A model generated the notes under the pieces. The model saw only the letters and a program-made list of their open reading frames with translations. It was not told the DNA's origin and made no database searches. From an uncultured Holophagae bacterium (lineage in GTDB: Bacteria > Acidobacteriota > Thermoanaerobaculia > Thermoanaerobaculales > Sulfomarinibacteraceae): a stretch of DNA of 64,000 nucleotides. Shown in pieces: positions 13,686-37,548 of the stretch; position 1 is the first letter of the stretch; every line of letters begins with the position of its first letter. The stretch covers positions 263,720 through 327,719 of the forward strand of contig CAVQOJ010000003.1 in assembly GCA_963714385.1 (NCBI GenBank). The letters run 5' to 3'. Position numbers and translations under genes: made by a program.

Positions 13686-13719
13686 GACTCCGTCGAGATT
13701 ACCAGAAGCGGGGGGGAGT

Positions 13720-13827: not shown

Positions 13828-14952
<1,125 letters not shown>

Positions 14953-21918: not shown

Positions 21919-24150
21919 TCAACCGGTCGGCGTCTGCATCCGGTCGTCGAGGATCTTGCGGAGGTGGTTTTCCTCCTTGAGGGTTCGAGCCAGGAGCTCG
22001 TCGGCCTCCTCTACGGGCACCGGCGCCGAAATGAACATCCCCTGAGCACGGTCGACTCCCAGGTCGCGAAGGGCGTCGAATTGGGAGCGGGTTTCGACCC
22101 CCTCGGCCACCGTCTGCTTGCCGAGGTTGCCGGCTAGGGTGGTGATGGTCTTGACGATCTGCGAGCTCTCCTCGTCGGCGAGCATCCGCGACACGAAGGA
22201 GTAGTCGATCTTGAGGGTGTCGATCTTGAACCGCCGGAGGTAGGCGAGGGACGAGTAGCCGGTTCCGAAGTCGTCGATGCTGATGCCGATATCCAGGGAT
22301 CTCAGCTGGTCGAGCATCTCCGACGCGTACTGAGCGTTCTCCATCAGGACGCTCTCCGTCACCTCGAGAGTCAGGCTGCGGCCGTAAAGCCCGGTCTTGC
22401 GCAGGATGTGGTCGATGCGGGTCACCAGGTCGGGCTGCATGAACTGGGTGCCCGAGACGTTGACGCTGACGTTGAGGGGGGGATTGTGACGGTACTGGCC
22501 TTGCCACGCCCGCAGCTGCCGGCAGGCCTCTTCGCAGACGAATCGATCGATCTGGATGATGGCGCCCATCTCCTCGGCCACGTGGATGAACTCTCCGGGT
22601 AGGAGCAGTCCACGCTCCGGGTGGTCCCACCTGACCAGAACCTCGAACCCGGTGATCCGCCCGACGGCGATCGAGACGATCGGCTGGTAGTAGACCTCGA
22701 ACTCGTTGCGGGCGATGGCGCGGCGGAGGTCGGTCTCGAGCTTGAGGGTTGCCACCACCTTGGCGTGCATCTCCTCGTCGAAGACGGCAAAGTTGTTGCG
22801 GCCCATCGCCTTGGCGCGGTACATGGCGGTGTCCGAGTCGCGGAGCAGATCCTCGGGCCGCTCGTAGCTCGGCTTCCAGACGGCGATGCCGATGCTGACC
22901 GTGGAAAAGACCTCGAGGCCGGCGACGTCGAATGGGATCCGGAACTCCTCGTGGATACGCTCGGCGGCCACCGTGGCACCGCGGACATCGGTGATGTCCT
23001 CGACGATGATGACGAACTCGTCGCCGCCGAAACGCGCCACGGTGTCCGATGGGCGGCAGGCCGACTGCACGCGCTGGGCGATGGCGCTCAGCAGGCGGTC
23101 GCCGGTGAGGTGGCCGAGGCTGTCGTTGACGTTCTTGAAACGGTCCACGTCGAAGAACAGCACCGCGAACGGCCGGCTGGGATCGCGGCGGGCGCGCGCG
23201 AACGCGAGTCGCAGCCGATCCATCAGCACAGTACGGTTGGGCAGCTTGGTGAGGGGGTCGTGGAGACCGCCGATCCGAATTTCTCCGTTCGGCTCCTCGG
23301 AGTGAACGTCGATCTGGCGGCCGACAATCCGGTGGACCGCACCGGTTGCGTCGCGCAGCATCTCGGCGCGCGCGAGCATCCACCTGTAGTCGCCGTCCTT
23401 GTGGAGGATCCGGTAGCGATGCTCGATGGGAGTCATGCTGCCGGCCAGGTTGGCATCGATCATGTTCCTCAGGCGCTCTCTGTCGTCCTCGTGAACGAGG
23501 TCGAACCAGACCTCCGGGGTCGATCCAAGCTCGTCTCCCGAGTAGCCCAGCATCTGCTTCCACCGGAGGGAGTAGTGCACCGTGTTGTGGTCGACATCCC
23601 AATCCCAGATCCCGTCGTCCTGGCCACCGCAGGCGATCACGAATCGGTCGTAATCGGATCGCAGTTCCCGATTCGAGTCGACGATGTCGGCCACGTGACC
23701 GATCCGGCCGGCAAGGAATCTGAGCTTGGTCGTGATGTCTTCGACAGCAACTGGATGGGAAATGAAATCGTCGCAGCCGAGGGCCAGCACCTCCTCGAGG
23801 GTGCCGGCGTCGTGGTCCGGGACGATGGCGAGAACCTGGGGTCCGGCGTACTCGTCTCGTCGGAGCTCGGCAAGGATCTCCCTGAGGTTCGCCGAGGGCA
23901 GGCGCCAGTCGACCACGGCCATGGACGGCGCGCTGCAGCGCACAACGGTGCGTGTTTCGTCGGGATCGGGAACGATGTGGGCGACATTCCCCATTTCAAC
24001 CACCACGCCCGCGACCATGTCGGCGAGTTCCCGGTCGCCCGACACGATCACCACGTTTCGGCTGGCTGCAGGGGGAGGTGAGTCCTGAACATCCGGGCCG
24101 GTTGAGTCCGTCATTCCACGGAGGCGGGCCAGCAGGTCGCGCCAAGTCAT
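21919..24150 (-). CDS. response-regulator receiver / PAS / GGDEF / EAL c-di-GMP turnover protein
   Basis: 743 aa. N-terminal receiver-like domain, PAS (DGIWDWDVDHNTVHYSLRWKQMLGY), RFGGDEF, EAL-domain blocks (EVLVRW, DDFGTGYSSL, KIDYSFV). Confidence 0.9.
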   Translation of the reverse strand: MTWRDLLARLRGMTDSTGPDVQDSPPPAASRNVVIVSGDRELADMVAGVVVEMGNVAHIVPDPDETRTVVRCSAPSMAVVDWRLPSANLREILAELRRDEYAGPQVLAIVPDHDAGTLEEVLALGCDDFISHPVAVEDITTKLRFLAGRIGHVADIVDSNRELRSDYDRFVIACGGQDDGIWDWDVDHNTVHYSLRWKQMLGYSGDELGSTPEVWFDLVHEDDRERLRNMIDANLAGSMTPIEHRYRILHKDGDYRWMLARAEMLRDATGAVHRIVGRQIDVHSEEPNGEIRIGGLHDPLTKLPNRTVLMDRLRLAFARARRDPSRPFAVLFFDVDRFKNVNDSLGHLTGDRLLSAIAQRVQSACRPSDTVARFGGDEFVIIVEDITDVRGATVAAERIHEEFRIPFDVAGLEVFSTVSIGIAVWKPSYERPEDLLRDSDTAMYRAKAMGRNNFAVFDEEMHAKVVATLKLETDLRRAIARNEFEVYYQPIVSIAVGRITGFEVLVRWDHPERGLLLPGEFIHVAEEMGAIIQIDRFVCEEACRQLRAWQGQYRHNPPLNVSVNVSGTQFMQPDLVTRIDHILRKTGLYGRSLTLEVTESVLMENAQYASEMLDQLRSLDIGISIDDFGTGYSSLAYLRRFKIDTLKIDYSFVSRMLADEESSQIVKTITTLAGNLGKQTVAEGVETRSQFDALRDLGVDRAQGMFISAPVPVEEADELLARTLKEENHLRKILDDRMQTPTG

Positions 24151-24367: not shown

Positions 24368-27300
24368 GTGAAGAGGGTCCGGCGATGGTTGGTGGCTGCG
24401 GCTGCGGTTCTGCTGGTGGTGATGACCGCCGGGCTGGTGCTGGTCCACCTCCCGCCGGTCCAGCGGCGTGCCTGGTCGAAGATCGTGGAGTCGGTGGCCG
24501 CCGAAACCGGCTGGCGGCTCGAGGCTCGGAGCGTCCGTTTCCGGTTGTTTCCGGCCGTCTTGGTGATCGACGGTTTCGGCATGGGAACGGGCGACGCGCA
24601 GCCGATCGCCGCCGACCACCTGGAGATTCGTTTTAGCTGGCGGCGGCTGATGGGAACGCCGCGCTCCGTCGACCGTGTGGTGATCGAAGGGCTCGAGGTG
24701 GACGGCACCCAGTTTGAGCTTCCCGAGCCAACAGGATCTCCTCAAGAGCCCCCAGCCGTCGATCCCTGGCGGACCCTCGAGATCGCCGAGCTCAGCCTGG
24801 CGGACGGCCGGCTGGTGGCGGCGGGCGGGGGAGTGGGCCTGAACGTGCAGCGGCTCAGCATCGCCGGGGCGCTGCGTGAAGGCACCGCCGAGGTCGAGAT
24901 CGATGCCGGGAGCCTGGCGGTCGACCGGGACGGCCGACGGCTGGATGCAGGCAGGTTGGTCATCGCCGCCCGAGCGGCGGCCTCGGGCGTCACATTGGAC
25001 CGAGTTCGGCTCGACGGGGCCAATGCACGGCTCATCGCATCCGGTGATCTCTCGGTATCGCCCGCGGTCGCCGGAACAGGAACGATCACCGCCGAGGCCG
25101 ACCTCCCAGCTCTGGTGAGCTGGTGGGATCCCGGGTTGGTTGACGTTTTCTCGCCCGAAGGTCGTCTCGCCATCGACGCCGGGATCTCGTACGCCCCGGA
25201 CGGCGGGTTCGAAATCAACATCCATCAGCGCGGCGATCCGGTTGGCATTTCAGGGTTTTCGGTCAGCAACCTCGCTGTGGAGCACGGCGGGGGCGTCACC
25301 CGGGCCTCGGCGGAGCTCGTGGGGCTGGGAACGGTGGAGCTGGCGTCCGTCGGAGCGCAAGGCTACCGACTGGTGGCCGACGTGGGTGAGGTGCGGATCG
25401 CCCGGCTTCTCGCCCTGGTGAACCGCCCGGCCATCGATGTCCTGCCGGAGGAGTTGACGGTCGGCGGTGAGGTCGAGGCGACCTTCGTCATGCCGATCAA
25501 CCTGGAGACCGCCGCGGCCGGTGGGCGGCTCGTGGTCCGCTGGCCGGAAGGCCACGTGGAGATCGAAGGATCGGGCGGCGGCCGGGATTGGGACCTGCGC
25601 CGGCTGGAGCTCGAGGTGCCGGGGGCGATTGGCTCCGGCAGGGGTGCGCTTGCCGGCGGCTCGATCACTGCGGATGTCCACATCCAGATCACGGACCCCG
25701 CGGCATTGGCCCGGGCGGCCGGTCCGTGGGTTCCTGCGATCGCCGCGCTGGCGGTCGGTGGTGGGCCGATCTCCCTCGACCTGAGGGCTTCGGGCGCATT
25801 GGAAAACCCCTATCTCGAAGCCGATCTGGACTGGATTGGTCCGGAGGTCGGCGGGGCGTCGATGGACGAGCTCCGGGCTGCGATTTCGGGGACCCTCGAT
25901 GATCTGGGTTGGAATGTGGAGCTGCGGCCGGGTCCTGGTGCCCTCGTGTCGGCGGATGGCAGGGCCGGCTTCCCGGAGCTGAGCGTCACTGGATCGTGGG
26001 CGGTGACGGTGGATTCGATCGTTGACCTCGAGCTGGTTCGACGATGGTTGCCTCAGGAGATCTCGGGAGAGCTCGCCGCGACCGGCCATTTCCGGTGGCA
26101 AGGGGGGGATTCCTGGAAGGTCGCCGGGTTCGCGGAGGCCGGCGACGTTGGCGTGGGCGGCTGGCTGGTGGACGAGGCGTCGGCGCGATTCGAGCTGGGT
26201 CCGGGTGGCGGGTCGGTGGCCGACGCGCGACTGCGGATGGGCACGGCCACGCTGGAGCTGGATGCCGATCTGCTGCCGTTGAGCCTCCAGGGGGATCTTC
26301 AAGCCGCGGTGCGGGTCGAAGGGTTGGATCTCGGCCAACTGGGATTGGGAGAGGCGGCGCGGGGCAGCCTTCGGGCGACGGTGGCGGTCGGCGGAACTCC
26401 ATCCGAACCGGTGCTGGTGGGGGATTTGGACTGGGCCGACGACGCCGAGGTGGCGATCGCCGACCCGGTGCGGATGCACCTAACCCTAGAGAGCGGCCGG
26501 TTCGAAGCGGTTACCGAGACCTGGCGGACGGTCGCCGGACCGATCCAGGCCGAGGTCGACATTCCCCTCGGAGACCTGCCGCGGCCGGAGTGGTTCTGGC
26601 CCGATTCGCCGACCGGGCCGATCCGGGCCCGGCTGACCGGAATCGGGCTCACCTCCAGCCCGCTGGTGGCGGCGCTCGGGCTGGACCCGTTGCCGGGAGA
26701 GGCATCGGGAGACGTGAACGTGGAGGTGGCCTGGGATCTGTCGGGCCCGGGGTCGCGCCTGGTACTGGTCGAGATCGACGGGCTCACCGCCAAGGGCGCC
26801 CACATGGACCTGACCGCCCAGGAAACCGTTCGGTTGCGATTCCTCGACAACCGCCTCGAGGTCGAGTCGGTCAGCCTGGTCGGGCCGCGCAGCAGGGTCG
26901 AGCTCGGGGGGGTCTACGACCTCGGCAGCCGCCGTCTGGTGGGCGCCGCCGACCTCAGTCTCGACGCCAGGGTCGTCGAGATGCTGCCGTTTCCGATTCG
27001 TGCCACCGGTCCGATCCGAATCCAGGCCGGTGTGGACGGCCCGATGGAGGGTCTCACCGCCACTCTTCTGGTGGACCACGAGGGCGGGTCGATCGTGATG
27101 CGTGATCCGGCCGTCGAGCTCACCGATCTCCGACTCCGGGTGGAGATCGACGACGGGGTGGTGTGGATCCAGGACGGGGAGGCCGGGCTCAATCAGGGGC
27201 GGCTGTGGATCGGCGGCGGCTGGGACCCAGCCATTCGGCAGGGCGTGGTGCTGGAGTTCGAGGACGTCAAGGCCCTGCTCGGCACCAGCATCGTCACCAG

Positions 27301-30253
27301 CTGGAGCGGGGCCGTCGCCATCGAGCCGGATCCCGAGCGCCTGGCACTGGTGGTCGGCGAGCTCGGTTTGAACGCCGGAGTCTGGGAGCGACCCTTCGAC
27401 CTCAAGGGGGCTTTCTTCGGCTCCGACGACGTCGCTCCGGAGGAGGACGACCCGTTGGCCGACATCGGCCTCGATCTTCAGGTGGCGGGATATGGCGGGA
27501 TCAAGGTCGACAACAACCTCGGGCGCTTCGACGCCAGTTGGGGAATCCTCGAGGTGGGGGGCACGGTTGCCCGACCCGACCTGGTCGGGACGGTCCGGCT
27601 GGCCCCGGGCGGAACCGTCAATCTGCCGGGCCAGACGGTGACGATTCGCCGGGCGACCCTGGACTTCACGGGCAATCCGGACACCGACCCGGTGATGGAG
27701 ATCGTGCCCGAGAAGTACTCGGTCGGCCTGGGCGGCAGCGAGGGCGGGGGTGGCCTGGATACCAGGCTGCTGGCCGCCGAGACCCTCGCCCGCAGCGCCG
27801 GTTCGGTGCTCGGCCTCGAGAACACGACCCTCCAGCCCGCCGAGGTCGCCTTCGAGACCCAGACCGACGCCAGTTCGGCCTTCACCGCCGGCCAGCGGCT
27901 GACCAGGAACGTCGCGATCTTCCTGACCACCGATCTGAGCGACGTGCAGAGGCAGACGACCATGCTCCAGCTGTGGAATCTGCGCGGCCTGCCGGGGCTG
28001 GCGCTCCAGGGGTACACCAAGACGGGGGAGGCCGACCACGGTGGCAACCTCATCGAGCGCTACCGTTGGGGAGGTGGCGCGGGGACCGATGACCGGCCGG
28101 TGATCCAGAAGATCAAGTTCGACGGCGAATGGCCGATCGGTCGGCGCCGCCTGCTGAAGACCACCGGCCTGCGGAAGGGAGAGCCCTTCGAACCGTTCCT
28201 CCTGTTCGCGGCCGGGCTCAGGCTGGAGGGCGCCCTGGCCGAGCTCGGCTACTCCCGAGCCAGAGTGCGCGGGGAGGCGGCGGGGGACCCGAAGCTGCCG
28301 GCCCTGATCTTCACCGTCGATCCGGGTCCCCGCGTTGACTTCGAGTTCACCGGGGATCAGATTCCCGCCCATGTCAGGCGCGCCGCCACTAGCCTGTACC
28401 TGGAGCCGCCCCTCGAAGAGGGCTCGTTCCTCGAGATCCGGCGGACCGTGATCCGCCACCTGCTGGGCGAGGGTTTTCCGGACGCGGAGGTCACCGTGGA
28501 GCGAGTCGCGGATGCAGTCGTCGTGACCAGCCACCGGGGAGAAAAGTCGGTCCTCAACGGGCCGCTGGTGGTGGGTCTGTCGGACGCCGATTCCGCGTCC
28601 CTGAGACGCCATGCCGGGACTGCGCTGATGCTGGCCGAGTTGGTCCGGGAGCCGGAGCTGGCCGCCCGGCTGGTGGAGCGTTGGCTGCGGGTCGAGGGAT
28701 ATCCCGAGGCGAAGCTCGAGGAGGTGTGGGTGACCGACCGCGACGATGGCACCCGTTGGGTCAATCTCAGGATCGATCCCGGACCCCGCCAGCGGCTGGG
28801 CCGGGTGGAGGTGGTGGGGGAAGACCCACTGGGGCTGACCTCAGGCGGTGTCCCCGATGTCGAGGCCGGGATGCCGTTGGACCGGCGGGCGATCGATCAG
28901 GCCCTGGGCCGGTTGCGGTCGAGGTACCGTGCGGCCGGGTACCCGGACGTCGCCGTCTCGATGAGCTTGCAGAGCGGCGACACAGCGGAACCGTCCATGG
29001 TGGTGACCCTCGAGCCGGGATCGCAACGAACGGTTCGCCAGGTGGAGGTGACCGGTCTGCGCTACATCCGCGAGTCGGTGATCCTGAAGGGGCTGACCGT
29101 CGAGCCCGGCCAGATCCTGCTGGCGTCGGACCTGGACACCAGCGCGGTCCGGACGGCCTTCTTCGCCCCGGTGGAGAAGGCGAACGTCAACACCCGAGAC
29201 GTGGGGTTGAATGTGACGGACGTGACCTTCGACGTCACGGAAAAGACACGATGGGCGGTGGAGGCCGGCGCCGGCTGGAGCACCGAGCGGGGGGCCAGCG
29301 TGCAGGCCGGGTTCCGTGACGACGGGCTGTTGGGTCGAGGGGCGGGGCTGAGCCTGCGAACCATATGGGACGAACGGCAGCACCAGGCGACACTGTACGC
29401 GTCGCTGCCCCCGCCTCCGGGCGGGCGCTGGTCCATGGTCGGGAACTTCCTGTGGTTTGACGGCGACTCGAGATCCAGCCCCGATTCGTTCAAGGAGGAA
29501 CAGGTGGGCGGCGCAGTGGAGGCGACCTACAGGGTCACCGACACGACCTCGCTGCGGGGTTACCTCAGGAGGCAGAGGACCGTAACAGAACTCAAACACC
29601 CGGAGGATCTCCCCCCGGGATTGGCGCCCGATCCAGTGACCAGCCACGAGACCATCGTCGGATCTCAATTCGTCTGGGACCGAATGGACAACCCCTTCGA
29701 TCCCCGGCGCGGGTCAGCCGTCGCCGTCGACCTGAGCCATAACGCGCCGAACCTGGGGTCCGATCTGAATGACCTTCGCCTCGTGCTGACCGGATCGCTG
29801 GTCACCGAACCGAGGGGCGGTTGGACCTGGGCCCAGACGCTTCGTCTGGGAGGGGTCGAGGGTCTCGGCGGAATGATCCCGGTCTTCAACCGCAAGTTCG
29901 TGGCCGGGGGTCAGGCGACGGTGCGGGGCTTCGACCTGGATTCCATCGGGCCGGTGATTCCGGCCGGGGGAGGCGGGTACAAGGCCAAAGGCGGGGGGGC
30001 GCTGTTCGTGTTGAACGAGGAGGTGCGTATCCCGATCGTGGCCAACATTCGGGCGGCGGTGTTCGCGGACGTGGGCCAGGTGTGGGAAACGTGGGGGGAC
30101 GCCACTTTAGAGTTCTCGGTCGGGGCAGGCTTCGGGCTTCGGCTGTCCACCCCGGTCGGCCCTCTCTGGGCTGACGTGGCGTGGCCCGTTGCGAACCCCA
30201 ACATCAGCTCGCCCGGGGCGAAGTACTACTTCGGTCTGGGAACGAACTTCTGA
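24368..30253 (+). CDS. TamB-like (AsmA/DUF490) protein fused in frame to a POTRA/Omp85 (BamA/TamA-like) outer-membrane barrel
   Basis: Single 1961-aa ORF. N-terminal signal anchor (WLVAAAAVLLVVMTAGLVLV) and ~1230 aa of TamB-like beta-rich sequence ending in a DUF490-like tail (FTAGQRLTRNVAIFLTTDLS ... LQGYTKTGEADHGGNLIERYRW, to 28069). After a Gly-rich linker, POTRA-like repeats start (VIQKIKFDGEW, ~28100), then an Omp85 barrel ending ..KYYFGLGTNF. No internal signal peptide. Confidence 0.8.
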   Translation: MKRVRRWLVAAAAVLLVVMTAGLVLVHLPPVQRRAWSKIVESVAAETGWRLEARSVRFRLFPAVLVIDGFGMGTGDAQPIAADHLEIRFSWRRLMGTPRSVDRVVIEGLEVDGTQFELPEPTGSPQEPPAVDPWRTLEIAELSLADGRLVAAGGGVGLNVQRLSIAGALREGTAEVEIDAGSLAVDRDGRRLDAGRLVIAARAAASGVTLDRVRLDGANARLIASGDLSVSPAVAGTGTITAEADLPALVSWWDPGLVDVFSPEGRLAIDAGISYAPDGGFEINIHQRGDPVGISGFSVSNLAVEHGGGVTRASAELVGLGTVELASVGAQGYRLVADVGEVRIARLLALVNRPAIDVLPEELTVGGEVEATFVMPINLETAAAGGRLVVRWPEGHVEIEGSGGGRDWDLRRLELEVPGAIGSGRGALAGGSITADVHIQITDPAALARAAGPWVPAIAALAVGGGPISLDLRASGALENPYLEADLDWIGPEVGGASMDELRAAISGTLDDLGWNVELRPGPGALVSADGRAGFPELSVTGSWAVTVDSIVDLELVRRWLPQEISGELAATGHFRWQGGDSWKVAGFAEAGDVGVGGWLVDEASARFELGPGGGSVADARLRMGTATLELDADLLPLSLQGDLQAAVRVEGLDLGQLGLGEAARGSLRATVAVGGTPSEPVLVGDLDWADDAEVAIADPVRMHLTLESGRFEAVTETWRTVAGPIQAEVDIPLGDLPRPEWFWPDSPTGPIRARLTGIGLTSSPLVAALGLDPLPGEASGDVNVEVAWDLSGPGSRLVLVEIDGLTAKGAHMDLTAQETVRLRFLDNRLEVESVSLVGPRSRVELGGVYDLGSRRLVGAADLSLDARVVEMLPFPIRATGPIRIQAGVDGPMEGLTATLLVDHEGGSIVMRDPAVELTDLRLRVEIDDGVVWIQDGEAGLNQGRLWIGGGWDPAIRQGVVLEFEDVKALLGTSIVTSWSGAVAIEPDPERLALVVGELGLNAGVWERPFDLKGAFFGSDDVAPEEDDPLADIGLDLQVAGYGGIKVDNNLGRFDASWGILEVGGTVARPDLVGTVRLAPGGTVNLPGQTVTIRRATLDFTGNPDTDPVMEIVPEKYSVGLGGSEGGGGLDTRLLAAETLARSAGSVLGLENTTLQPAEVAFETQTDASSAFTAGQRLTRNVAIFLTTDLSDVQRQTTMLQLWNLRGLPGLALQGYTKTGEADHGGNLIERYRWGGGAGTDDRPVIQKIKFDGEWPIGRRRLLKTTGLRKGEPFEPFLLFAAGLRLEGALAELGYSRARVRGEAAGDPKLPALIFTVDPGPRVDFEFTGDQIPAHVRRAATSLYLEPPLEEGSFLEIRRTVIRHLLGEGFPDAEVTVERVADAVVVTSHRGEKSVLNGPLVVGLSDADSASLRRHAGTALMLAELVREPELAARLVERWLRVEGYPEAKLEEVWVTDRDDGTRWVNLRIDPGPRQRLGRVEVVGEDPLGLTSGGVPDVEAGMPLDRRAIDQALGRLRSRYRAAGYPDVAVSMSLQSGDTAEPSMVVTLEPGSQRTVRQVEVTGLRYIRESVILKGLTVEPGQILLASDLDTSAVRTAFFAPVEKANVNTRDVGLNVTDVTFDVTEKTRWAVEAGAGWSTERGASVQAGFRDDGLLGRGAGLSLRTIWDERQHQATLYASLPPPPGGRWSMVGNFLWFDGDSRSSPDSFKEEQVGGAVEATYRVTDTTSLRGYLRRQRTVTELKHPEDLPPGLAPDPVTSHETIVGSQFVWDRMDNPFDPRRGSAVAVDLSHNAPNLGSDLNDLRLVLTGSLVTEPRGGWTWAQTLRLGGVEGLGGMIPVFNRKFVAGGQATVRGFDLDSIGPVIPAGGGGYKAKGGGALFVLNEEVRIPIVANIRAAVFADVGQVWETWGDATLEFSVGAGFGLRLSTPVGPLWADVAWPVANPNISSPGAKYYFGLGTNF

Positions 30254-30256: not shown

Positions 30257-31102
30257 CTAGCCTGCGAAGGCTGCCGAGAGCGCGCGTGCTGTGTCCGCCT
30301 CGGGCGCCGAAGGGGCGAGGGCGAGGAACCGCGAAAAGTCGTCTAGCATCAGGTCCTTCCGATCGAGCTTTGACCACGCGAGACCGCGGTAGAAGAACGC
30401 TGGTGCGAAGCGGTCGTCGAGGGTGATGACCGCCGTGAAGGCATCCACGGCCTTGGTCCACTGCTTTTCGAGCACATACGTCAGCCCGGTCTGGTAGCCG
30501 GTCATTCTCTTGTCAAAGCCCTCCTGCGCCGCGGCGGCGAGCGCGGTGCGTGCGGGTCCCGGCTGCTCGTGCCTGACCAACGCCGCACCGAGGTAGAACT
30601 GAGCGTGGGCGTTTTTCGGTTGGGCGGTCACCAGCGCCTTGGCTCGGTCGCGCGCCTTGGTCCAGGCGGCTCGAGCGGGGTCGGGTTTCTTCTGTGCCTG
30701 AAGCACCTCGCCCTTGAAATACTCGGCCGTCGGATCGGAGGGATCGGCGGTGGATGCCGCCTGGAGCAGGTCGACGGCGTCTTGGAGCTTGCCCTCGTTG
30801 TAGCGCAGCAGGCCGGTGGCGGTCTTGAACTCCGGCGTCGCTCCGTACTGCTGCCTCGCGCCGTCGAGGATGTTCTTGCCGGCGTTGGTCTTCCAACCGA
30901 CCAGCTCTGCGATCGCCCGGTCTGCAACTTTGCGGGCTCCGCCACCATTGGTCGAAACCTGGGTCGGCTGCTGCGCCGGTACCGCGCGGCCGCCGCGGCG
31001 CGGCGCCGGGACCGGCGTCGCTTCCTGGGCGACGGTCCAGCCCGCTACGAGTAACGCCACACCGCCGAGTAGAAACCGAGAACCGATACGTGCCATGCCC
31101 AC
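30257..31102 (-). CDS. secreted TPR-repeat protein
   Basis: 281 aa. N-terminal signal sequence (FLLGGVALLVAGWTVAQEA) and several TPR-like Ala/Tyr/Phe-spaced helical repeats. Confidence 0.65.
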   Translation of the reverse strand: MGMARIGSRFLLGGVALLVAGWTVAQEATPVPAPRRGGRAVPAQQPTQVSTNGGGARKVADRAIAELVGWKTNAGKNILDGARQQYGATPEFKTATGLLRYNEGKLQDAVDLLQAASTADPSDPTAEYFKGEVLQAQKKPDPARAAWTKARDRAKALVTAQPKNAHAQFYLGAALVRHEQPGPARTALAAAAQEGFDKRMTGYQTGLTYVLEKQWTKAVDAFTAVITLDDRFAPAFFYRGLAWSKLDRKDLMLDDFSRFLALAPSAPEADTARALSAAFAG

Positions 31103-31258: not shown

Positions 31259-32584
31259 GTGCTGACTGCAGACCGCCGTGGGCGGATCCTGAGCCTCGCC
31301 CTGCCGATCATCGGGGGCATGGCGTCTCAGAACGTGCTCAACCTGGTGGATACAGCCATGGTGGGACTTCTGGGCGCCGCGCCGCTGGCTGCGGTGGGCA
31401 TGGCGAGCTTCGCCAACTTCATGGCCGCAGCCTTCATCATGGGTCTGTCGGCCGGGGTTCAGGCGATGGCGGCGCGACGCCTCGGCGAGGACCGTCACTC
31501 AGAGACCGCGGTGCCCTTGAATGGGGGCCTCCTGCTGGCGCTGGTGGTGGCCGTTCCGTGGTCGATGCTGTTGATCGCAGAAAGTGCAAGTTTCTTCCCG
31601 TTCCTGGTGGCCGACCCGGAAGTGGTGGCGCACGGCGTTCCCTATCTCCAGGCCAGACTGGTCGCGATGGTGGCGCTGGCGATGAACTTCTCCTTCCGGG
31701 GCTATTGGAACGGTGTCGGACTGTCCAAGGTTTACATGCGCACCCTGATCGTGATGCACGCCACCAACATCGTGTTGAACTGGGTGCTGATCTTCGGTCA
31801 CCTGGGCTTCCCCGCGCTTGGCGCCACCGGTGCTGGGGTCGCGTCGGCCATCTCTACCTTCGTCGGCACCGGGTTGTACCTGTACCAGGGCTCGCGGATC
31901 GCGCGGGACAACGGTTTTCTGCGCGGCCTGCCCGACCGTTCGACCATCTTCACCATGCTCAGGCTGTCGGTCCCGGCCGGGATCCAGCAGTTCTTTTTCG
32001 CGGCCGGGATGACGGCACTGTTCTGGATTCTCGGTCGCATCGGGACGGCGGAGCTCGCCGCATCCAACGTGCTGGTTCAGCTGCTCCTGGTGGCCATCCT
32101 CCCGGGCATCGGATTCGGCATGGCGTCGGCCTCCCTGGTCGGGCAGGCGCTGGGCAGAGGCGACCCCGAGGGCGCCCGGGCCTGGGCTTGGGATGTGGTG
32201 CGGCTGGGCGTCGCCACGGTCGGGGCCATTTCCCTGCTCGGCCTCGTGTTTCCCGATTTCCTGCTCGGCTTCTTTCTTCACGACCCGGTGACCTTGGCTT
32301 TGGCCCGCACCCCGCTTCGCATCCTCGCCGTTGCGATGTGGGTGGACACCATCGGCCTCGTACTGCTCAACTCGTTGCTCGGAGCCGGCGACTCGAGGCG
32401 GGTGATGATGGTGACGGTGTCCCTGCAGTGGCTGATTTTTCTGCCGACTGCCTGGGTGCTCGGTGCACAGCTGGGGGTCGGGATGACCGCGGTGTGGGTC
32501 GCCCACGCGGTCTACCGGGGGCTGCAGAGCCTGGTCTTCATCTCCATGTGGCAGGGTCGCAGGTGGACCGAGATATCTCTGTGA
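31259..32584 (+). CDS. MATE-family efflux transporter
   Basis: 441 aa, ~12 hydrophobic segments. N-terminal [27 protein letters not shown] is the typical MATE signature. Confidence 0.85.
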
Positions 32585-32615
32585 AACGTGAAAAATGAAC
32601 GGTGAAAAGTGGGAC
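32581..32615. repeat. period-7 array GTGAAAC GTGAAAA ATGAACG GTGAAAA GTGGGAC
   Basis: Starts on the MATE stop codon (TGA 32582-84). Left arm of an inverted pair with 32644..32674. Confidence 0.85.
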
Positions 32616-32643
32616 CAGATTGGTGACGTTCCAAATGCCATGT

Positions 32644-32674
32644 CACATTTCACTTTTCACGTTTCACTTTCACG
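32644..32674. repeat. period-7 array CACATTT CACTTTT CACGTTT CACTTT CACG
   Basis: Reverse complement of the GTGAAAA array. The 28-nt spacer is CAGATTGGTGACGTTCCAAATGCCATGT. Confidence 0.85.
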
Positions 32675-32814
32675 TCGCGATTGCCGCAGCGTGGCTTTCG
32701 CCGGCACGGCGACGGGTGGTACCCTGCCCGGCGCCGGTCAAACGGCTCACTCAATTGGGGTTCTGCGGTGTTCGCGGCCTGCGGGTGCGCGTCGATTCGA
32801 GAGGATGGAGCGAG

Positions 32815-33831
32815 ATGCGATTCGAAAACGTCAGCATATTGAGCGTCGAGCACGTGGATGCTCCGCACAGGCTCAGCTCGGAGGAGATTGAACGGCGGCT
32901 CGGCCCGGCGATCAGCCAGCTCGGAATCCGACCCGGGTTGCTGGTCGAGGTGTCCGGAATCGTCGAGCGGCGGCTGTGGGACCCCGGCGTCACGCCGAGC
33001 GTTCCGGCGACCTCGGCTGGAGAGCGGGCTATCCAGGCGGCAGGCCTGGACCGGTCGAAGGTGGGCGTCCTGGTCAACACCTCGGTGTCACGCGACTACC
33101 TGGAGCCTTCAACGGCCTGTGCGATCCACAATGGCCTCGGCCTGCCCGAGACCTGCATGAACTTCGACGTCTCCAACGCCTGCCTCGGCTTCATGAACGG
33201 CATGGATGTCGTGGGCAACATGATCGAACGGGGTCAGGTGGAGTACGGCATCGTCGTCGACGCCGAGAGCAGTCGGGAGTTGATCGAGGCGACGATCCCC
33301 CGCCTGCTCGACGGGTCGATGGATGCAACCGCCTTTCGCGAGAACTTCGCCAGCCTCACCCTCGGTTCGGGGGCGGTGGCGATGGTGCTGGCCCGTTCGG
33401 ACCTGGCGCCGGAGGGACATCGTTATCTGGGCGGCGTCACCCTGGCGGCCACCGAGAACTGCCAGCTGTGCTGCGGCAACATGGACCGGATGGTCACCGA
33501 CACCCAGGCGCTGACCGTCGCCGGCCTCGAGCTTGCGATGCGGACTTGGAGGCGCGCCGCCGAGGTGCTGGGATGGACCACGGACACCCACGACCACTAC
33601 GTCCAGCACCAGGTGAGCAAGGGCCACGCCGAAAAGGTCGCGGGCATCCTCGGGCTCGACTTCGACAAGGTCTACCGGCTGTACCCGACCTACGGCAACG
33701 TGGGCCCGGCCGGGGTCGCCATCGTGCTGTCCAAGCTCGGGAAGGAAGGTATCGCCGCAGCCGGAGATCGGATCGCCATGATGGGCATCGGCAGCGGGAT
33801 CAACTGCACGATGGCGGAGGTGATCTGGTAG
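32815..33831 (+). CDS. oleA: OleA, FabH-like thiolase for head-to-head fatty-acyl condensation
   Basis: Trimmed to ATG 32815 (MRFENVSILSVEHV). FabH/KAS-III-like with active-site NACLGF. First gene of a thiolase / alpha-beta hydrolase / AMP-ligase / short-chain reductase set in the canonical ole order. Confidence 0.8.
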   Translation: MRFENVSILSVEHVDAPHRLSSEEIERRLGPAISQLGIRPGLLVEVSGIVERRLWDPGVTPSVPATSAGERAIQAAGLDRSKVGVLVNTSVSRDYLEPSTACAIHNGLGLPETCMNFDVSNACLGFMNGMDVVGNMIERGQVEYGIVVDAESSRELIEATIPRLLDGSMDATAFRENFASLTLGSGAVAMVLARSDLAPEGHRYLGGVTLAATENCQLCCGNMDRMVTDTQALTVAGLELAMRTWRRAAEVLGWTTDTHDHYVQHQVSKGHAEKVAGILGLDFDKVYRLYPTYGNVGPAGVAIVLSKLGKEGIAAAGDRIAMMGIGSGINCTMAEVIW

Positions 33832-33836
33832 GGCGG

Positions 33837-33871
33837 AGTCAAAAGTTAAAGTCAAAAGTCTAAAGTCCGAG
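33837..33871. repeat. period-7 array AGTCAAA AGTTAAA GTCAAAA GTCTAAA GTCCGAG
   Basis: Starts 6 nt after the oleA stop. The leader GCGGAGTCAAAAGT is also found after the murB stop (63194..). Left arm of an inverted pair with 33910..33944. Confidence 0.85.
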
Positions 33872-33909
33872 GTCAGCGCACCGACTTTCCCCGACGATCA
33901 GGTTCAGAC

Positions 33910-33944
33910 GACTTTGGACTTTTGACGTCGAGACTTTAGACTGA
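33910..33944. repeat. period-7 array GACTTTG GACTTTT GACGTCG AGACTTT AGACTGA
   Basis: Reverse-complementary to 33837..33871 with a 38-nt spacer. Ends 19 nt before the oleB ATG. Confidence 0.85.
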
Positions 33945-33962
33945 CTCGACGGTTGAGATTTC

Positions 33963-34868
33963 ATGAAGAGCGTGCCGAAAGAGCTGTATCCGTTTGAACC
34001 GCACTACGTTGAGGTGCAGGGTGTGCGGATGCACTACGTGGACGAGGGCGTGGGCGATCCGGTGCTCTGCGTCCACGGCAATCCCACCTGGTCGTTCTAC
34101 TACCGTCGGCTGATCCTGAGCCTGAGGGACGGCCACCGCGTGGTGGCACCCGATCATGTCGGCTGCGGGCTCTCCGATCGACCAGGTGACGATCGCTATG
34201 CGTACACCCTCGCCCGCAGGATTGACGATCTCGAGGCGCTGGCGGATGACCTCGAGCTGACCGGGGTCAATCTGGTGGTCCACGACTGGGGAGGCGCGAT
34301 CGGGCTCGGCTGGGCGGTGCGACATCCCGAGAGAGTGCGGCGCCTGGTGATCCTCAACACGGCGGCGTTCCATCTGCCGGCCGGGAAGAAGCTGCCGTGG
34401 CAGCTGAGGCTGGTTCGCGACACGGCGGCCGGCGCGTTCGTGGTGCGCGGCCTGAACGCATTCGCACGGGGAGCCACCCACGTTGCCTGCACCCGGCGGC
34501 GGTTGACCAAGGCAGAACGCGACGCCTACTGCGCTCCCTACGACAGCTGGACGAACCGGATCGCCACCCTCCGCTTCGTCCAGGATATTCCGCTCGGCCC
34601 GGGGGACCCCGCCTACCCGGTCATCACCCAAATCCAGGAGTCGCTGGGGGAGCTCGCCGACCGGCCGATCCTGGTGTGTTGGGGCCTGCGTGACTTCGTC
34701 TTCGACCGCCATTTCCTGGCCGAGTGGCGCCGGATCTACCCCGGTGCCCAGGTGCACGAGTTCCCCGACAGCGGGCATTACGTGCTCGAGGACTCCGGCG
34801 ACGAGATCGTCGGGCTGGTAGGTGCCTTCCTGTCCGCCGACCGGGTGTTAGACTCGACCGCACGGTGA
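33963..34868 (+). CDS. oleB: OleB, alpha/beta hydrolase (haloalkane-dehalogenase-like beta-lactone decarboxylase)
   Basis: 301 aa. HGNPTWSFYYR and VVHDWGGAIG motifs of the haloalkane-dehalogenase-like subfamily. Its stop overlaps the oleC start (GTGA). Confidence 0.8.
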   Translation: MKSVPKELYPFEPHYVEVQGVRMHYVDEGVGDPVLCVHGNPTWSFYYRRLILSLRDGHRVVAPDHVGCGLSDRPGDDRYAYTLARRIDDLEALADDLELTGVNLVVHDWGGAIGLGWAVRHPERVRRLVILNTAAFHLPAGKKLPWQLRLVRDTAAGAFVVRGLNAFARGATHVACTRRRLTKAERDAYCAPYDSWTNRIATLRFVQDIPLGPGDPAYPVITQIQESLGELADRPILVCWGLRDFVFDRHFLAEWRRIYPGAQVHEFPDSGHYVLEDSGDEIVGLVGAFLSADRVLDSTAR

Positions 34869-36523
34869 GCGGCCCGGTCAATATCGCGTCGTACCTGCCG
34901 CGGAGAGCCTCCGAGCGGCCCCACGCCATGGCGGTGGCGTGTCCCGTCGGGCGCGACGCTGGCGGTCGAACCAGCTACGCCCACCTGACCTACCGCCAGC
35001 TCGACACCCGGTCCGACCATATCGCCAACGGCCTGGCGTTGAGTGGTATCGGCCCCGGTGTGCGGACGGTGCTCATGGTCCGACCCGGGCTCGACCTGTT
35101 TTCTCTGGTCTTCGCCATGCTCAAGGTGGGGGCGGTTCCGATCCTGATCGACCCGGGCATCGGACGCCGCCACCTCAAGCGGTGTATCGCCGACGCTCGA
35201 CCCGAGGCGTTCATCGGGGTTCCCGAAGCCCAGCTGGCCAGCCTCGCGTTCGGGTGGGGACGAGGCACCGTGCGCCGCCGCGTGACGGCCGGTCGAAAGG
35301 TTCCCGGCGGCGGAATCACCCTGGCGAAGATCGAGAGAGACGGCGCCGCGGTTCGCCGCCGGGAGCCGGTGGACGCCGGCGCCGACGAGATGGCCGCGAT
35401 CGTGTTCACGTCCGGATCCACCGGACCGCCGAAGGGCGTGGTCTACCGGCATCGCAACTTCACCGCCCAGGTGGAGGCGATCCGAGAGATGTTCGACCTG
35501 AAGCCGGGGGAGGTCGATCTCCCGACCTTCCCGCTGTTTGCCCTGTTCGACCCGGCGCTGGGCATGACCACCATCATTCCCCGGATGGATCCCACCCGGC
35601 CGGCGATGGTGGATCCGCGGAGGATCATCGAACCGATCGACGACTTCGGGGTGACCATGATGTTCGGCTCGCCGGCGCTGCTGGACACGGTGGGAAGGTA
35701 CGGCGAGCGGCACGGGGTCCGCCTGCCGTCGCTGAAACGGGTGCTCTCCGCCGGCGCACCGGTCCCGCCTCGGGTGATCGCCCGGTTTGCCGGGATGCTC
35801 CCCGAAGATGCCCGGATCCTCACACCCTACGGGGCCTCGGAGGCCCTGCCGGTGGCCGTGATTTCATCGGACGAGATCCTTGGGGAGACGGGATCCGGCA
35901 CCGACCGGGGGGCCGGCGTGTGCGTCGGACGAGCCGTGCCGGGCATCGAGCTCGAGCTGATCCGAGTGACGGACGAGCCTATCCAGGCCTGGGATCCGGG
36001 GCTCGCGGTGGCCCCGGGCGAGATCGGCGAGATTGTCGTCAAAGGAGAACAGGTCACCACGGCCTATTTCAACTCTCCCCACCACGACCGGCTGTCGAAG
36101 ATGCGGGACACCGACGGCAGCGTCCGCCACCGCATGGGGGACCTCGGGTACCGGGACGATCGGGGGCGGTTGTGGTTCGTGGGCCGCAAGTCTCAGCGAG
36201 TGGTGACCGCGAGCGGCACCCTCTACACCGATCAGTGCGAGGGGGTGTTCAACACCCACCCGGCGGTGTACCGGAGCGCGCTGGTGGGGGTCGGTGACGG
36301 TGGCGACGTCGAGCCGGTGATCTGCGTGGAGCTCGAAAAGACCTCTTCGATCAGCAGGCGGCAGCTGATCCTGGAGCTCGAGGAGCTCGGCGGGCGATTC
36401 GAGCACACCAGGTCGATCCACCGATTCCTGTGCCATCCGGGCTTTCCGGTGGACATTCGCCACAACGCCAAGATCGGGCGGGGGCAGCTGGCCCGGTGGG
36501 CGGCGAAAAAGCTGAATCGTTGA
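34865..36523 (+). CDS. oleC: OleC, AMP-dependent synthetase (beta-lactone synthetase)
   Basis: Start set at GTG 34865, overlapping the oleB stop. Adenylate-forming motifs IVFTSGSTGPPKG, YGASE and GDLGYRDDRGRLWFVGRK. Confidence 0.8.
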   Translation: MSGPVNIASYLPRRASERPHAMAVACPVGRDAGGRTSYAHLTYRQLDTRSDHIANGLALSGIGPGVRTVLMVRPGLDLFSLVFAMLKVGAVPILIDPGIGRRHLKRCIADARPEAFIGVPEAQLASLAFGWGRGTVRRRVTAGRKVPGGGITLAKIERDGAAVRRREPVDAGADEMAAIVFTSGSTGPPKGVVYRHRNFTAQVEAIREMFDLKPGEVDLPTFPLFALFDPALGMTTIIPRMDPTRPAMVDPRRIIEPIDDFGVTMMFGSPALLDTVGRYGERHGVRLPSLKRVLSAGAPVPPRVIARFAGMLPEDARILTPYGASEALPVAVISSDEILGETGSGTDRGAGVCVGRAVPGIELELIRVTDEPIQAWDPGLAVAPGEIGEIVVKGEQVTTAYFNSPHHDRLSKMRDTDGSVRHRMGDLGYRDDRGRLWFVGRKSQRVVTASGTLYTDQCEGVFNTHPAVYRSALVGVGDGGDVEPVICVELEKTSSISRRQLILELEELGGRFEHTRSIHRFLCHPGFPVDIRHNAKIGRGQLARWAAKKLNR

Positions 36524-37548
36524 TGTTGACCTCAACGCGAGCAGTGAAGGCCCTGGTCACCGGAGGCGGGGGGTTCCTCGGCGGGGCGATCGTCCGCCGG
36601 CTGGTCGAGCGCGGGTGGATGGTGAGGACGTTGCAGCGCGGCCAGTATCCGGCTCTCGACGACCTCGGGGTGGAGCAGATCCGGGGTGACATCGCCGATC
36701 AGGCGGCGGTCGATCGGGCGGTGGCCGGGTGCGACCTGGTGTTTCACGTCGCGGCCAAGGTCAAGATGTGGGGACGATACGACGACTTCCAACGCATCAA
36801 CGTCGACGGCACGGGCAACGTCCTCGCCGCCATGGACCGCCACGGCGTGAGCCGGCTCGTCTACACCAGCACGCCGAGCGTGGTTCACGGCGGGCAGTCG
36901 ATCGAGGGCGCCGACGAGACGGCGCCGTACCCGACCACCTTTGATTCTCCCTACCCGGAGTCGAAGGCCGCCGCCGAACGGGCGGTGCTGGCGGCCAACG
37001 GGCCCCGGCTGGCCACGGTCGCGCTGAGGCCGCACCTGATCTGGGGGCCGGGAGACACCAACCTGGTGCCCCAAGTCGTCGCCCGCGCCAGGGCGGGTCG
37101 CCTGCGATTCGTCGGCGGCGGCGACAACCTCGTGGATACGGTCTACATCGACAACGCGGTCGATGCCCACCTGCTGGCCGCCGACCGGCTGAAGCCGGGC
37201 GCGCCGTGCGCCGGCCGGCCGTACTTCATCACCAACGGGGAGCCGAGGCCTTTGAAAGAGGTGATCAACGGGATTTTGGCGGCGGCGGGCCTGCCGCCGG
37301 AAAACCGGTCGCTGCCGCTGGCCGTGGCGCTGGCCGCCGGCAGCCTGTTGGAGGCGGTGCACCGCGTGCTGCCGGGCGACCACGATCCGGTCATGACCCG
37401 GTTCATCGCCCGCAATCTCGCCACCGCCCACTGGTACGACATCTCGGCCGCTCGCCGCGACCTCGGCTACGAGCCTCGAGTCAGCATGGATGAAGGACTC
37501 AGGCGACTCGGAGACTGGTTCCGAACCCGACGGACGAGCGATATTTAG
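36523..37548 (+). CDS. oleD: OleD, NAD(P)H-dependent reductase (3-beta-hydroxysteroid dehydrogenase/epimerase family)
   Basis: ATG 36523 overlaps the oleC stop (ATGA). Rossmann motif VTGGGGFLGG and catalytic YPESK. Confidence 0.8.
   Translation: MLTSTRAVKALVTGGGGFLGGAIVRRLVERGWMVRTLQRGQYPALDDLGVEQIRGDIADQAAVDRAVAGCDLVFHVAAKVKMWGRYDDFQRINVDGTGNVLAAMDRHGVSRLVYTSTPSVVHGGQSIEGADETAPYPTTFDSPYPESKAAAERAVLAANGPRLATVALRPHLIWGPGDTNLVPQVVARARAGRLRFVGGGDNLVDTVYIDNAVDAHLLAADRLKPGAPCAGRPYFITNGEPRPLKEVINGILAAAGLPPENRSLPLAVALAAGSLLEAVHRVLPGDHDPVMTRFIARNLATAHWYDISAARRDLGYEPRVSMDEGLRRLGDWFRTRRTSDI

What the first reader, a model, noticed from the sequence alone, without database searches (positions are those of the whole stretch)
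24368..30253. Single 1961-aa ORF fusing a TamB-like inner-membrane-anchored protein to a POTRA/Omp85 outer-membrane barrel
The first ~1234 residues have the TamB layout: an N-terminal signal anchor, a long beta-rich periplasm-spanning region, and a DUF490-like tail ending ..LQGYTKTGEADHGGNLIERYRW.

After a 10-residue Gly-rich linker (28070..28099), the frame continues with no stop and no second signal peptide. It runs into ~385 aa of POTRA-like repeats and a ~330-aa Omp85 barrel ending in the typical aromatic terminus (..YFGLGTNF).

In the systems I know, TamB and its Omp85 partner (TamA or BamA) are separate polypeptides that dock through the TamB C-terminus and the POTRA domains. A covalent TamB-to-Omp85 fusion has the right topology for an envelope-spanning single chain (N-terminus in the inner membrane, C-terminus in the outer membrane). 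It would hard-wire that interaction. The missing internal signal peptide argues for a genuine fusion rather than two genes merged by error.
Basis: partly seen in the sequence, partly recalled or inferred. Interest (0 to 1): 0.65.

Follow-up and report, generated by a model that had tools for sequence, protein, structure and literature searches.

The report
Natural single-chain TamB–Omp85 envelope bridge
One 1961-residue gene joins an inner-membrane-anchored TamB-type lipid bridge to a BamA-like outer-membrane barrel, and this real fusion is conserved across many uncultured Acidobacteriota yet went unmentioned in every paper I could search.

Summary
Window 24368..30253 (+) is one 1961-codon ORF. 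It has a single N-terminal membrane anchor, a TamB-type region that keeps the complete DUF490 tail, and a 13-residue Gly-rich linker with no signal peptide. Five POTRA domains and a 16-strand Omp85 barrel follow.

It is not an assembly artefact:
- 167 related proteins from independent assemblies read through the same junction, and 132 are full length (1858-2297 aa).
- Linkers are 7-41 aa, median 11.
- One independent sediment-metagenome unitig spans the junction with substitutions only.

Unfused relatives exist with the same gene order (tamB then omp85, ATGA overlap). There the Omp85 has its own signal peptide.

The organism is probably a Thermoanaerobaculia member of Acidobacteriota from sediment.

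The most likely function is a hard-wired TAM-like module for outer-membrane lipid and protein biogenesis, inferred from E. coli TamAB.

A secreted TPR protein gene lies next to the fused gene in most loci and is a candidate partner.

Three points stay untested: whether the DUF490 tail docks into its own barrel, whether the chain is cleaved, and whether a separate canonical BamA exists.

Databases label these proteins automatically, but seven full-text literature searches found no description. I rate it a new variant of a known kind.

The parts
24368..30253 (+). Complete fused tamB-omp85 gene, 1961 codons plus stop. GTG start at 24368; alternative TTG start at 24389.
   Evidence: GC3 is 0.84.
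24389..24445 (+). N-terminal signal-anchor helix (residues 8-26, LVAAAAVLLVVMTAGLVLV), preceded by the basic stretch KRVRR. Predicted inner-membrane anchor.
   Evidence: It is the only segment with Kyte-Doolittle(19) above 1.5, at 2.84. Weak AsmA/DUF748 N-terminal matches. Being uncleaved is inferred from TamB homologues (PMC5582053).
24446..27706 (+). TamB-type periplasm-spanning beta-rich region (residues 27-1113). Predicted beta-taco lipid groove.
   Evidence: The family TamB-part HMM covers residues 5-1237 of the ORF and also matches E. coli TamB at 167 bits. PDB profile search hits 9xdc_B at E 5e-51. The AlphaFold2 model of residues 901-1113 is nearly all beta-strand at pLDDT about 75-89. 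Residues 27-900 were not modelled.
27707..28069 (+). DUF490 tail (residues 1114-1234): two low-confidence helices, then five predicted beta-strands ending in ..NLIERYRW. This is the counterpart of the TamB strands that enter the TamA barrel in E. coli.
   Evidence: hhalign aligns to E. coli TamB residue about 1244. An aromatic or hydrophobic residue followed by Gly-Gly is conserved at the end across the family. The E. coli hybrid barrel is described in PMC12800296 and PMC13119328.
28070..28108 (+). Linker GGGAGTDDRPVIQ (residues 1235-1247). No stop and no hydrophobic segment.
   Evidence: Family linker lengths are 7-41 aa, median 11. Run X10 has a 151-nt unitig spanning 27993-28141 with 6 substitutions and 0 gaps.
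28109..29251 (+). Five POTRA domains, approximately residues 1248-1318, 1324-1389, 1395-1470, 1479-1549 and 1555-1625.
   Evidence: Pfam POTRA. The beta-alpha-alpha-beta-beta pattern repeats five times in two AlphaFold2 models; the POTRA-plus-barrel model has pLDDT 91. Foldseek's best matches are full-length BamA over about 800 columns at E 1e-43 to 1e-47.
29252..30250 (+). 16-strand Omp85 barrel (residues 1629-1961) with the VRGF loop-6 motif and the C-terminal ..YFGLGTNF.
   Evidence: Pfam PF01103 at 123 bits. Sixteen strands by DSSP. R, G and F of the VRGF motif are invariant across 31 homologues.
30257..31102 (-). Secreted TPR protein gene, convergent, 3 nt from the fused gene's stop. Candidate accessory partner, inferred from conserved adjacency only.
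   Evidence: Only generic TPR matches in Pfam and NCBIfam, no BamD match. Signal-peptide-like N-terminus MARIGSRFLLGGVALLVAGWTVAQ with no lipobox Cys. A homologue lies next to the fused gene in 32 of 47 fused loci; many of the loci without one lack enough flank. In L038 and L051 it is on the same strand directly upstream.

Best explanation
This is a genuine single polypeptide that combines both subunits of a TAM-like envelope machine.

Shown:
- One N-terminal hydrophobic anchor.
- A TamB-homologous region of about 1200 residues that keeps the complete DUF490 tail, including the last beta-strand.
- A short Gly-rich linker with no signal peptide.
- Five POTRA domains and a 16-strand Omp85 barrel.
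- The same continuous architecture in more than 130 diverged homologues.

Inferred:
- The chain is exported through Sec, and its N-terminal helix stays in the inner membrane.
- The TamB part spans the periplasm as a hydrophobic beta-taco groove.
- The DUF490 strands engage an Omp85 barrel seam as in E. coli TamAB, either the chain's own barrel or a neighbour's.
- The assembled chain carries phospholipids to the outer membrane and may help assemble some outer-membrane proteins.

The fusion fixes a 1:1 ratio and makes the association permanent. It most plausibly arose from a tamB-then-omp85 operon by loss of the stop codon and of the Omp85 signal peptide. A secreted TPR protein encoded next door is a likely partner.
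For: Architecture:
- Domain hits.
- The family profile matches BamA at 2e-85, TamA at 5e-55 and E. coli TamB at 5e-51 in the PDB.
- hhalign against E. coli TamB gives 98% probability and runs into the last strands.
- AlphaFold2 models: pLDDT 79 for residues 901-1961 and 91 for 1245-1961.
- Foldseek's best match is full-length BamA.
- A single membrane anchor and no internal signal peptide.

Genuineness:
- All 31 word-index hits are 1898-2297 aa and carry PF04357, PF07244 and PF01103.
- In the exhaustive search most of the top 150 cluster representatives align in one stretch across the junction.
- 167 chains contain the junction and 132 are full length.
- Many metagenome loci are fused.
- Synteny is kept at 39% identity.
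- A unitig from run X10 spans the junction without gaps, and the three listed substitutions are synonymous or conservative.

Origin:
- L072 and L076 have tamB then omp85 with an ATGA overlap, and their Omp85 has its own signal peptide.

Function:
- TamAB hybrid barrel and lipid transport are described in PMC12800296 and PMC13119328.
- TamB pairs with BamA in bacteria that lack TamA (PMC5582053, PMC4494059).
Against: - There is no functional or expression data for any member.
- In E. coli the TamB strand that pairs with TamA beta-1 is the free C-terminus. Here it continues after 13 residues into POTRA1, which is the POTRA farthest from the barrel along the chain.
- Comparing Foldseek TM-scores with and without the TamB part did not discriminate.
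- No separate canonical BamA could be looked for outside the 64-kb window. None lies within it.
- The Pfam TamB hit on the single sequence is weak (28 bits). The strong support comes from profiles.
Confidence: 0.72

Rival explanations
1. Precursor model. The chain is made as one polypeptide so that the Omp85 part can be exported without its own signal peptide and in equal amounts. A periplasmic protease then cuts the Gly-rich linker. The result is an ordinary two-subunit TamB/Omp85 complex in which TamB regains a free C-terminal beta-signal.
For: - In E. coli the strand pairing with TamA beta-1 is the free C-terminus.
- The aromatic residue followed by Gly-Gly at the end of the TamB part is conserved.
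- Linkers are short, variable in sequence and predicted flexible; pLDDT is below 50 at model residues 339-341.
Against: - No recognisable protease site is conserved in the linker.
- Linkers as short as 7 residues leave little room for a protease.
- There is no precedent in TAM or BAM systems in the papers read.
- Unfused same-order operons exist and work with an ordinary signal peptide, so a fusion-then-cleavage route has no obvious advantage.
Confidence: 0.12
2. Tethered-BamA model. The Omp85 part is the organism's main or only BamA. The general beta-barrel insertase itself would then be covalently tied to a TamB bridge, rather than this being an extra TAM-like paralogue.
For: - Five POTRA domains as in BamA rather than three as in TamA.
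- The profile and Foldseek match BamA best.
- No other Omp85 gene lies in the 64-kb window.
- TamB works with BamA in Borrelia (PMC5582053).
Against: - TIGR03303 scores 171 bits against a cut-off of 297.
- In a crude neighbour-joining tree the fused Omp85 parts group apart from the stand-alone BamA-like genes that cluster with E. coli BamA.
- Acidobacteria are reported to carry a canonical BamA plus a second copy linked to TamB (PMC4494059).
- A barrel that needs an Omp85 for its own insertion would be hard to start without a separate BamA. This last point is inference.
Confidence: 0.12
3. Artefact model. Two adjacent genes were merged by an assembly or sequencing indel that removed a stop codon.
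For: - Public runs hold only thin coverage of this population, and only one unitig spans the junction.
- Some homologous loci do show frame breaks: L004 in three frames, and L033 with an in-frame TAG.
Against: - 167 independent chains read through the junction with different linker sequences and lengths.
- There is no signal peptide after the junction, unlike the truly separate genes in L072 and L076.
- The X10 unitig has no gap.
- The breaks in L004 and L033 lie elsewhere, not at the junction.
Confidence: 0.02

Closest known systems
E. coli TamA-TamB translocation and assembly module (PDB 9xdc; PMC12800296, PMC13119328)
   Same: - An N-terminally anchored TamB with a beta-taco and a DUF490 tail of helices and beta-strands.
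- An Omp85 partner with POTRA domains and a 16-strand barrel.
- Homology supported by profile searches.
   Different: - Two polypeptides encoded tamA then tamB, against one chain ordered TamB then Omp85 here.
- TamA has three POTRA domains, against five here.
- TamB's last strand is a free C-terminus in E. coli but internal here.
- The TamA equivalog model is far below its cut-off (78 bits against 625).
TamB-BamA pairing in bacteria without TamA (Borrelia burgdorferi BB0794/BamA; PMC5582053, PMC11361582)
   Same: - TamB works with a five-POTRA BamA-type Omp85.
- The gene order tamB then bamA is reported for Spirochaetes (PMC4494059).
- The TamB C-terminal domain binds POTRA domains.
   Different: The proteins are separate, and BamA there is the canonical, only Omp85 with its own signal peptide.
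Unfused tamB-omp85 operons found here (loci L072, L076; candidate-division relatives)
   Same: The gene order is the same and the TamB tail is the same type (..DLLYKLRFP). The genes are tightly coupled through an ATGA overlap.
   Different: - The stop codon is retained.
- The Omp85 has its own signal peptide and only about three POTRA-equivalents by HMM coverage.
- No adjacent TPR gene was detected.
[quoted passage not shown]
   Same: They set a precedent for partner or passenger domains being fused in front of the POTRA domains and barrel.
   Different: Those extensions are periplasmic or secreted domains. None is an inner-membrane-anchored bridge that would make the chain span both membranes. 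That survey does not list a TamB fusion.
Plastid TIC236-TOC75 (TamB and Omp85 homologues; bioRxiv 10.1101/2021.04.25.441383, listed)
   Same: A TamB homologue anchored in the inner envelope links to an Omp85 channel in the outer envelope.
   Different: The proteins are separate, the setting is a eukaryotic organelle, and the role is protein import.

Membership tests
TamB / DUF490 family (Pfam PF04357; AsmA-like bridge proteins) | Sequence match to the DUF490 model above the curated cut-off | tested here: met
   PF04357 scores 28.2 bits against a cut-off of 22.4 on the single sequence. The family profile matches E. coli TamB at E 5e-51. The tail profile gives E 9e-29. hhalign gives 98% probability.
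TamB / DUF490 family (Pfam PF04357; AsmA-like bridge proteins) | Single N-terminal membrane anchor, with the rest in the periplasm | tested here: met
   There is one hydrophobic segment, residues 8-26, and no other. Whether it stays uncleaved could not be tested.
TamB / DUF490 family (Pfam PF04357; AsmA-like bridge proteins) | Long beta-taco groove fold | tested here: inconclusive
   Residues 901-1113 are predicted as consecutive beta-strands at pLDDT 75-89.
TamB / DUF490 family (Pfam PF04357; AsmA-like bridge proteins) | The last beta-strand (beta-signal-like) is the free C-terminus of the protein | tested here: not met
   The homologous strand ..NLIERYRW ends at residue 1234 and is followed by 727 more residues.
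Omp85 superfamily (Pfam PF01103 with POTRA PF07244) | C-terminal 16-strand barrel with the VRGF loop-6 motif, preceded by POTRA domains | tested here: met
   PF01103 at 123 bits and POTRA at 56 bits. Sixteen strands and five POTRA domains in the models. The VRGF residues are invariant in 31 homologues.
BamA (NCBIfam TIGR03303 equivalog) | Score above the equivalog cut-off | tested here: not met
   171 bits against a cut-off of 297. In a crude NJ tree it groups apart from E. coli BamA and the stand-alone BamA-like genes.
BamA (NCBIfam TIGR03303 equivalog) | Five POTRA domains | tested here: met
BamA (NCBIfam TIGR03303 equivalog) | Own cleavable signal peptide; a stand-alone protein | tested here: not met
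   No hydrophobic segment precedes POTRA1, and the frame is continuous with the TamB part.
TamA (NCBIfam NF047950 equivalog) | Score above the cut-off, and three POTRA domains | tested here: not met
   78 bits against a cut-off of 625. It has five POTRA domains. It groups apart from E. coli TamA and from omp85-then-tamB operon genes in the NJ tree.
TAM complex as defined in E. coli | DUF490 strands form a hybrid barrel with beta-1 of the Omp85 subunit | not testable with these tools
The Foldseek TM-score comparison of the two models was uninformative.
TAM complex as defined in E. coli | Phospholipid transport and/or outer-membrane protein assembly activity | not testable with these tools
   This needs experiments.

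The most novel reading that the evidence does not exclude
The fused proteins would form a third Omp85 lineage, distinct from both BamA and TamA. In it a TamB bridge is permanently docked into the barrel of its own chain, even though its beta-signal strand is internal. The chain would work with a dedicated secreted TPR subunit as a self-contained, envelope-spanning outer-membrane biogenesis machine in Acidobacteriota. Its short linker (median 11 residues) would then pin down a POTRA geometry not seen in E. coli TamAB.
Probability: 0.3. Interest if true: 0.75.

Novelty: new variant of a known kind. Interest (0 to 1): 0.6.

Why it matters
How TamB-type bridges are held at the outer membrane is being argued right now. 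The open question is whether the hybrid barrel with the Omp85 partner is a stable working state or a transient one. The two TamAB structure papers differ on this.

A natural covalent TamB-Omp85 chain bears on that question in several ways:
- It is an evolutionary experiment that makes the association permanent, conserved across a major soil and sediment phylum.
- Its very short linker puts a hard distance limit between the end of the TamB tail and POTRA1.
- It offers a built-in 1:1 complex for structural work.
- It poses a clear biogenesis puzzle: a chain of about 210 kDa anchored in one membrane while its far end is folded into the other.
- It corrects automatic labels, since these genes are currently named BamA, YaeT, TamA or TamB at random.
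- It points to a linked TPR protein as a possible new subunit.

Tried and rejected
- Read-level check of the junction. Eight public sediment runs hold only thin, diverged fragments. Runs X1-X4 do not cover 28066-28144. Only one 151-nt unitig, from X10, spans it.
- The look-up of encoding contigs for the window's own protein returned nothing on record.
- The genome-contig scan with the single protein returned one distant Acidobacteriota MAG locus, L004. Species-level taxonomy and a genome-wide bamA search were therefore not possible.
It was repeated with 10 sequences.
- phmmer of the TamB tail alone against the PDB found nothing. A 9-sequence profile was needed.
- An in-silico control for self-docking compared Foldseek TM-scores to open and closed BamA states, for models with and without the TamB part. 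Both models rank the substrate-engaged states highest, so the test is uninformative.
It returned only 'candidate division ...' with the name cut off.
- The TPR neighbour was tested as a BamD relative. Only generic TPR matches appeared.
- Seven literature searches and six paper look-ups found no natural TamB-Omp85 fusion. The library lacks most subscription-journal papers, so this negative is not absolute.
Full report
OBSERVATION. Window 24368..30253 (+) is one ORF of 1961 codons starting at GTG. The database copy of the same protein starts seven codons later at TTG 24389. In this DNA (63-70% G+C) long spurious ORFs are common on other frames. This ORF, however, has the codon-position G+C of real genes here (0.73/0.50/0.84).

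Pfam finds four things:
- Omp85 at residues 1654-1961 (E 2e-35).
- POTRA in three stretches from residue 1244.
- TamB/DUF490 at 1020-1112 (28.2 bits, cut-off 22.4).
- Weak AsmA/DUF748 matches at the N-terminus.

NCBIfam's best match is BamA TIGR03303 at 171 bits, below its cut-off of 297. TamA reaches 78 bits against a cut-off of 625. Hydropathy shows a single membrane-grade segment at residues 8-26 and nothing near the junction. The junction reads ..NLIERYRW GGGAGTDDRPVIQ KIKF.. with no stop.

IS THE N-TERMINAL PART REALLY TamB? The single-sequence Pfam hit is weak, so I used profiles.
- A profile of 31 homologues matches E. coli TamB (PDB 9xdc_B) at E 5e-51. It also matches BamA at 2e-85 and TamA at 5e-55.
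- A profile of the last ~460 residues of the TamB part matches TamB at E 9e-29.
- hhalign against E. coli TamB residues 800-1259 gives 98% probability. The alignment runs to about residue 1244 of 1259, which is inside the final beta-strands.

The tail ..NLIERYRW is thus the counterpart of the E. coli C-terminus. Across the family this position keeps an aromatic or hydrophobic residue, usually followed by Gly-Gly.

STRUCTURE. AlphaFold2 on residues 901-1961 (31-sequence alignment, pLDDT 79, pTM 0.58) predicts the following, in order:
- Consecutive beta-strands.
- Two low-confidence helices at about 1133-1164.
- Five strands at 1169-1234.
- A 13-residue linker.
- Five beta-alpha-alpha-beta-beta POTRA units at 1248-1625.
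- Sixteen barrel strands at 1629-1957.

A second model of residues 1245-1961 alone has pLDDT 91 and the same layout. Foldseek's best matches are full-length BamA chains over about 800 columns (E 1e-43 to 1e-47). The Omp85 part is therefore BamA-shaped, with five POTRA domains, and not TamA-shaped.

IS THE FUSION REAL? Several lines agree.
- All 31 hits of the word-index search are 1898-2297 aa and carry PF04357, PF07244 and PF01103.
- I ran an exhaustive HMMER scan of 1.84 billion cluster representatives with residues 901-1961. It gave 409 hits at E<=1e-30. Most of the top 150 are proteins of 1850-2280 aa aligned in one stretch across the junction.
- With my own HMMs, 167 of 184 collected sequences contain the junction and 132 are full length (1858-2297 aa, median 2027). 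Linkers are 7-41 aa (median 11), and POTRA regions are 397-462 aa.
- Many JGI metagenome loci carry the same single ORF.
- A locus at 39% protein identity keeps the gene neighbourhood: GGDEF-EAL, the fused gene, TPR, MatE, KAS-III-like and onward.
- Public runs hold only thin, about 95%-identical fragments. One 151-nt unitig of run X10 does span 27993-28141, with six substitutions and no gap. The three listed are 28039 C>T (synonymous), 28066 T>A (synonymous) and 28085 A>G (Thr to Ala).

An assembly artefact is excluded for practical purposes.

COMPARATIVE CONTEXT. The metagenome loci fall into four arrangements:
- Fused.
- tamB then omp85 as separate genes (L072, L076).
- omp85 then tamB, the E. 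coli order (L048, L054, L060, L064, L071, L073, L078).
- Stand-alone BamA-like genes.

In L072 and L076 the tamB stop overlaps the omp85 start (ATGA). There the Omp85 begins with a classical signal peptide, MNRPVYLCACVLAILLIFSRTPFAGD. The fused family has lost exactly these two features.

A crude neighbour-joining tree of the barrel plus about two POTRA domains has no support values. It places the fused Omp85 parts together. They sit apart from a TamA-like group (E. coli TamA plus the omp85-then-tamB genes) and from a BamA-like group (E. coli BamA plus the stand-alone genes).

Heinz et al. 2015 report that Acidobacteria have a canonical BamA plus a second copy in a BamA-TamB operon. They report the TamB-BamA order for Spirochaetes, and they do not mention a fusion (PMC4494059).

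ORGANISM. The window's pyruvate dehydrogenase E1 is about 80% identical to proteins named Thermoanaerobaculales bacterium. That order belongs to Acidobacteriota. Two distant fused homologues are also labelled Acidobacteriota. Runs sharing sequence are sediment and marine-sediment metagenomes. I infer a sediment Thermoanaerobaculia member. I did not establish whether the family extends beyond the phylum.

MECHANISM. By homology with E. coli TamAB, TamB is a lipid-filled beta-taco. Its DUF490 strands form a hybrid barrel with TamA beta-1 (PMC12800296 and PMC13119328). I propose a single-chain, envelope-spanning module for outer-membrane lipid supply and possibly protein assembly.
- Shown: the domain order, the single anchor, the retained tail, the missing internal signal peptide and the conservation.
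- Inferred: Sec export with an uncleaved anchor, barrel insertion by a separate BAM, docking of the tail into an Omp85 seam, and lipid transport.

One geometric issue is open. In E. coli the pairing strand is the free C-terminus. By ordinary beta-barrel topology it should end at the periplasmic face, next to beta-1. Here only 13 residues connect that point to the N-terminus of POTRA1, the POTRA farthest from the barrel along the chain. Thirteen residues span at most roughly 45 Å when fully extended. Three readings are possible: the five-POTRA arm curls back, the tail docks into a neighbouring molecule, or the chain is cleaved in the linker. I could not decide between them because model coordinates are not exposed. 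A TM-score comparison of models with and without the TamB part was uninformative.

A LINKED GENE. The convergent gene 30257..31102 (-) ends 3 nt after the fused gene. It encodes a TPR protein with a signal peptide and no lipobox. Homologues lie directly beside the fused gene in 32 of 47 fused loci, and many of the loci without one lack enough flank. This includes clades only about 25% identical to the window protein. In L038 and L051 the homologue sits immediately upstream on the same strand. Among the unfused loci only L060 has one. It shows only generic TPR matches and none to BamD. I list it as a candidate partner on adjacency alone.

NOVELTY. Annotation pipelines already give these proteins assorted names: TamB domain-containing, BamA, YaeT or TamA. 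The architecture is therefore catalogued. Seven full-text searches and six targeted paper readings found no description of a natural TamB-Omp85 fusion. The library lacks most subscription-journal papers, so this is not proof of absence. I rate it a new variant of a known kind, with interest 0.6.

Noticed in passing
window 30257..31102 (-); also L001 8518.., L038 4101..4886 (+), L051 4100..4885 (+): A secreted TPR protein gene lies beside the fused gene in 32 of 47 fused loci (many of the rest lack enough flank), across clades only about 25% identical. It is convergent in most loci and co-directional with a 3-nt gap or overlap in L038 and L051. It may be an accessory subunit.
   Followed up: partly
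L072 3577..9560 and L076 3487..9368: These are unfused relatives with the same gene order. The tamB stop overlaps the omp85 start (ATGA). The Omp85 has its own signal peptide and only about three POTRA-equivalents. The closest named relative comes from a 'candidate division' whose name was cut off.
   Followed up: partly
L033 355..6075: This fused homologue (76% G+C) has a single in-frame TAG inside POTRA1, after an intact junction. It could be a pseudogene, a sequencing error or a read-through site.
   Followed up: no
L004 7150..13311 (uncultured Acidobacteriota MAG, MFD03551.bin.2.58): This fused homologue is split over three reading frames (7150..10092, 9842..12874, 12664..13311). It looks like indel errors in the assembly rather than separate genes.
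   Followed up: no
window 31259..37548 (+): Just downstream lies a run of genes: a MatE exporter, a KAS-III-like condensing enzyme, an alpha/beta hydrolase, an AMP-binding acyl ligase and a 3-beta-HSD/epimerase-type reductase. The same run is kept in L001 at about 39% identity of the fused protein. It may be a lipid or secondary-lipid pathway next to a lipid-bridge gene.
   Followed up: no
window 21919..24150 (-): A response-regulator-PAS-GGDEF-EAL protein is encoded divergently upstream of the fused gene. A GGDEF-EAL gene occupies a similar upstream position in L001, separated there by a small MAPEG gene.
   Followed up: no
window 24368 vs 24389: The start codon is ambiguous. GTG 24368 gives the basic stretch KRVRR before the anchor helix. 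The database gene call uses TTG 24389 and loses it. The upstream start fits the positive-inside rule better.
   Followed up: no
window 10707..13913 (-): A 1068-aa protein combines a response-regulator receiver domain with a PEP-utilising (PPDK_N) domain. This is an unusual pairing and is unrelated to the finding.
   Followed up: no
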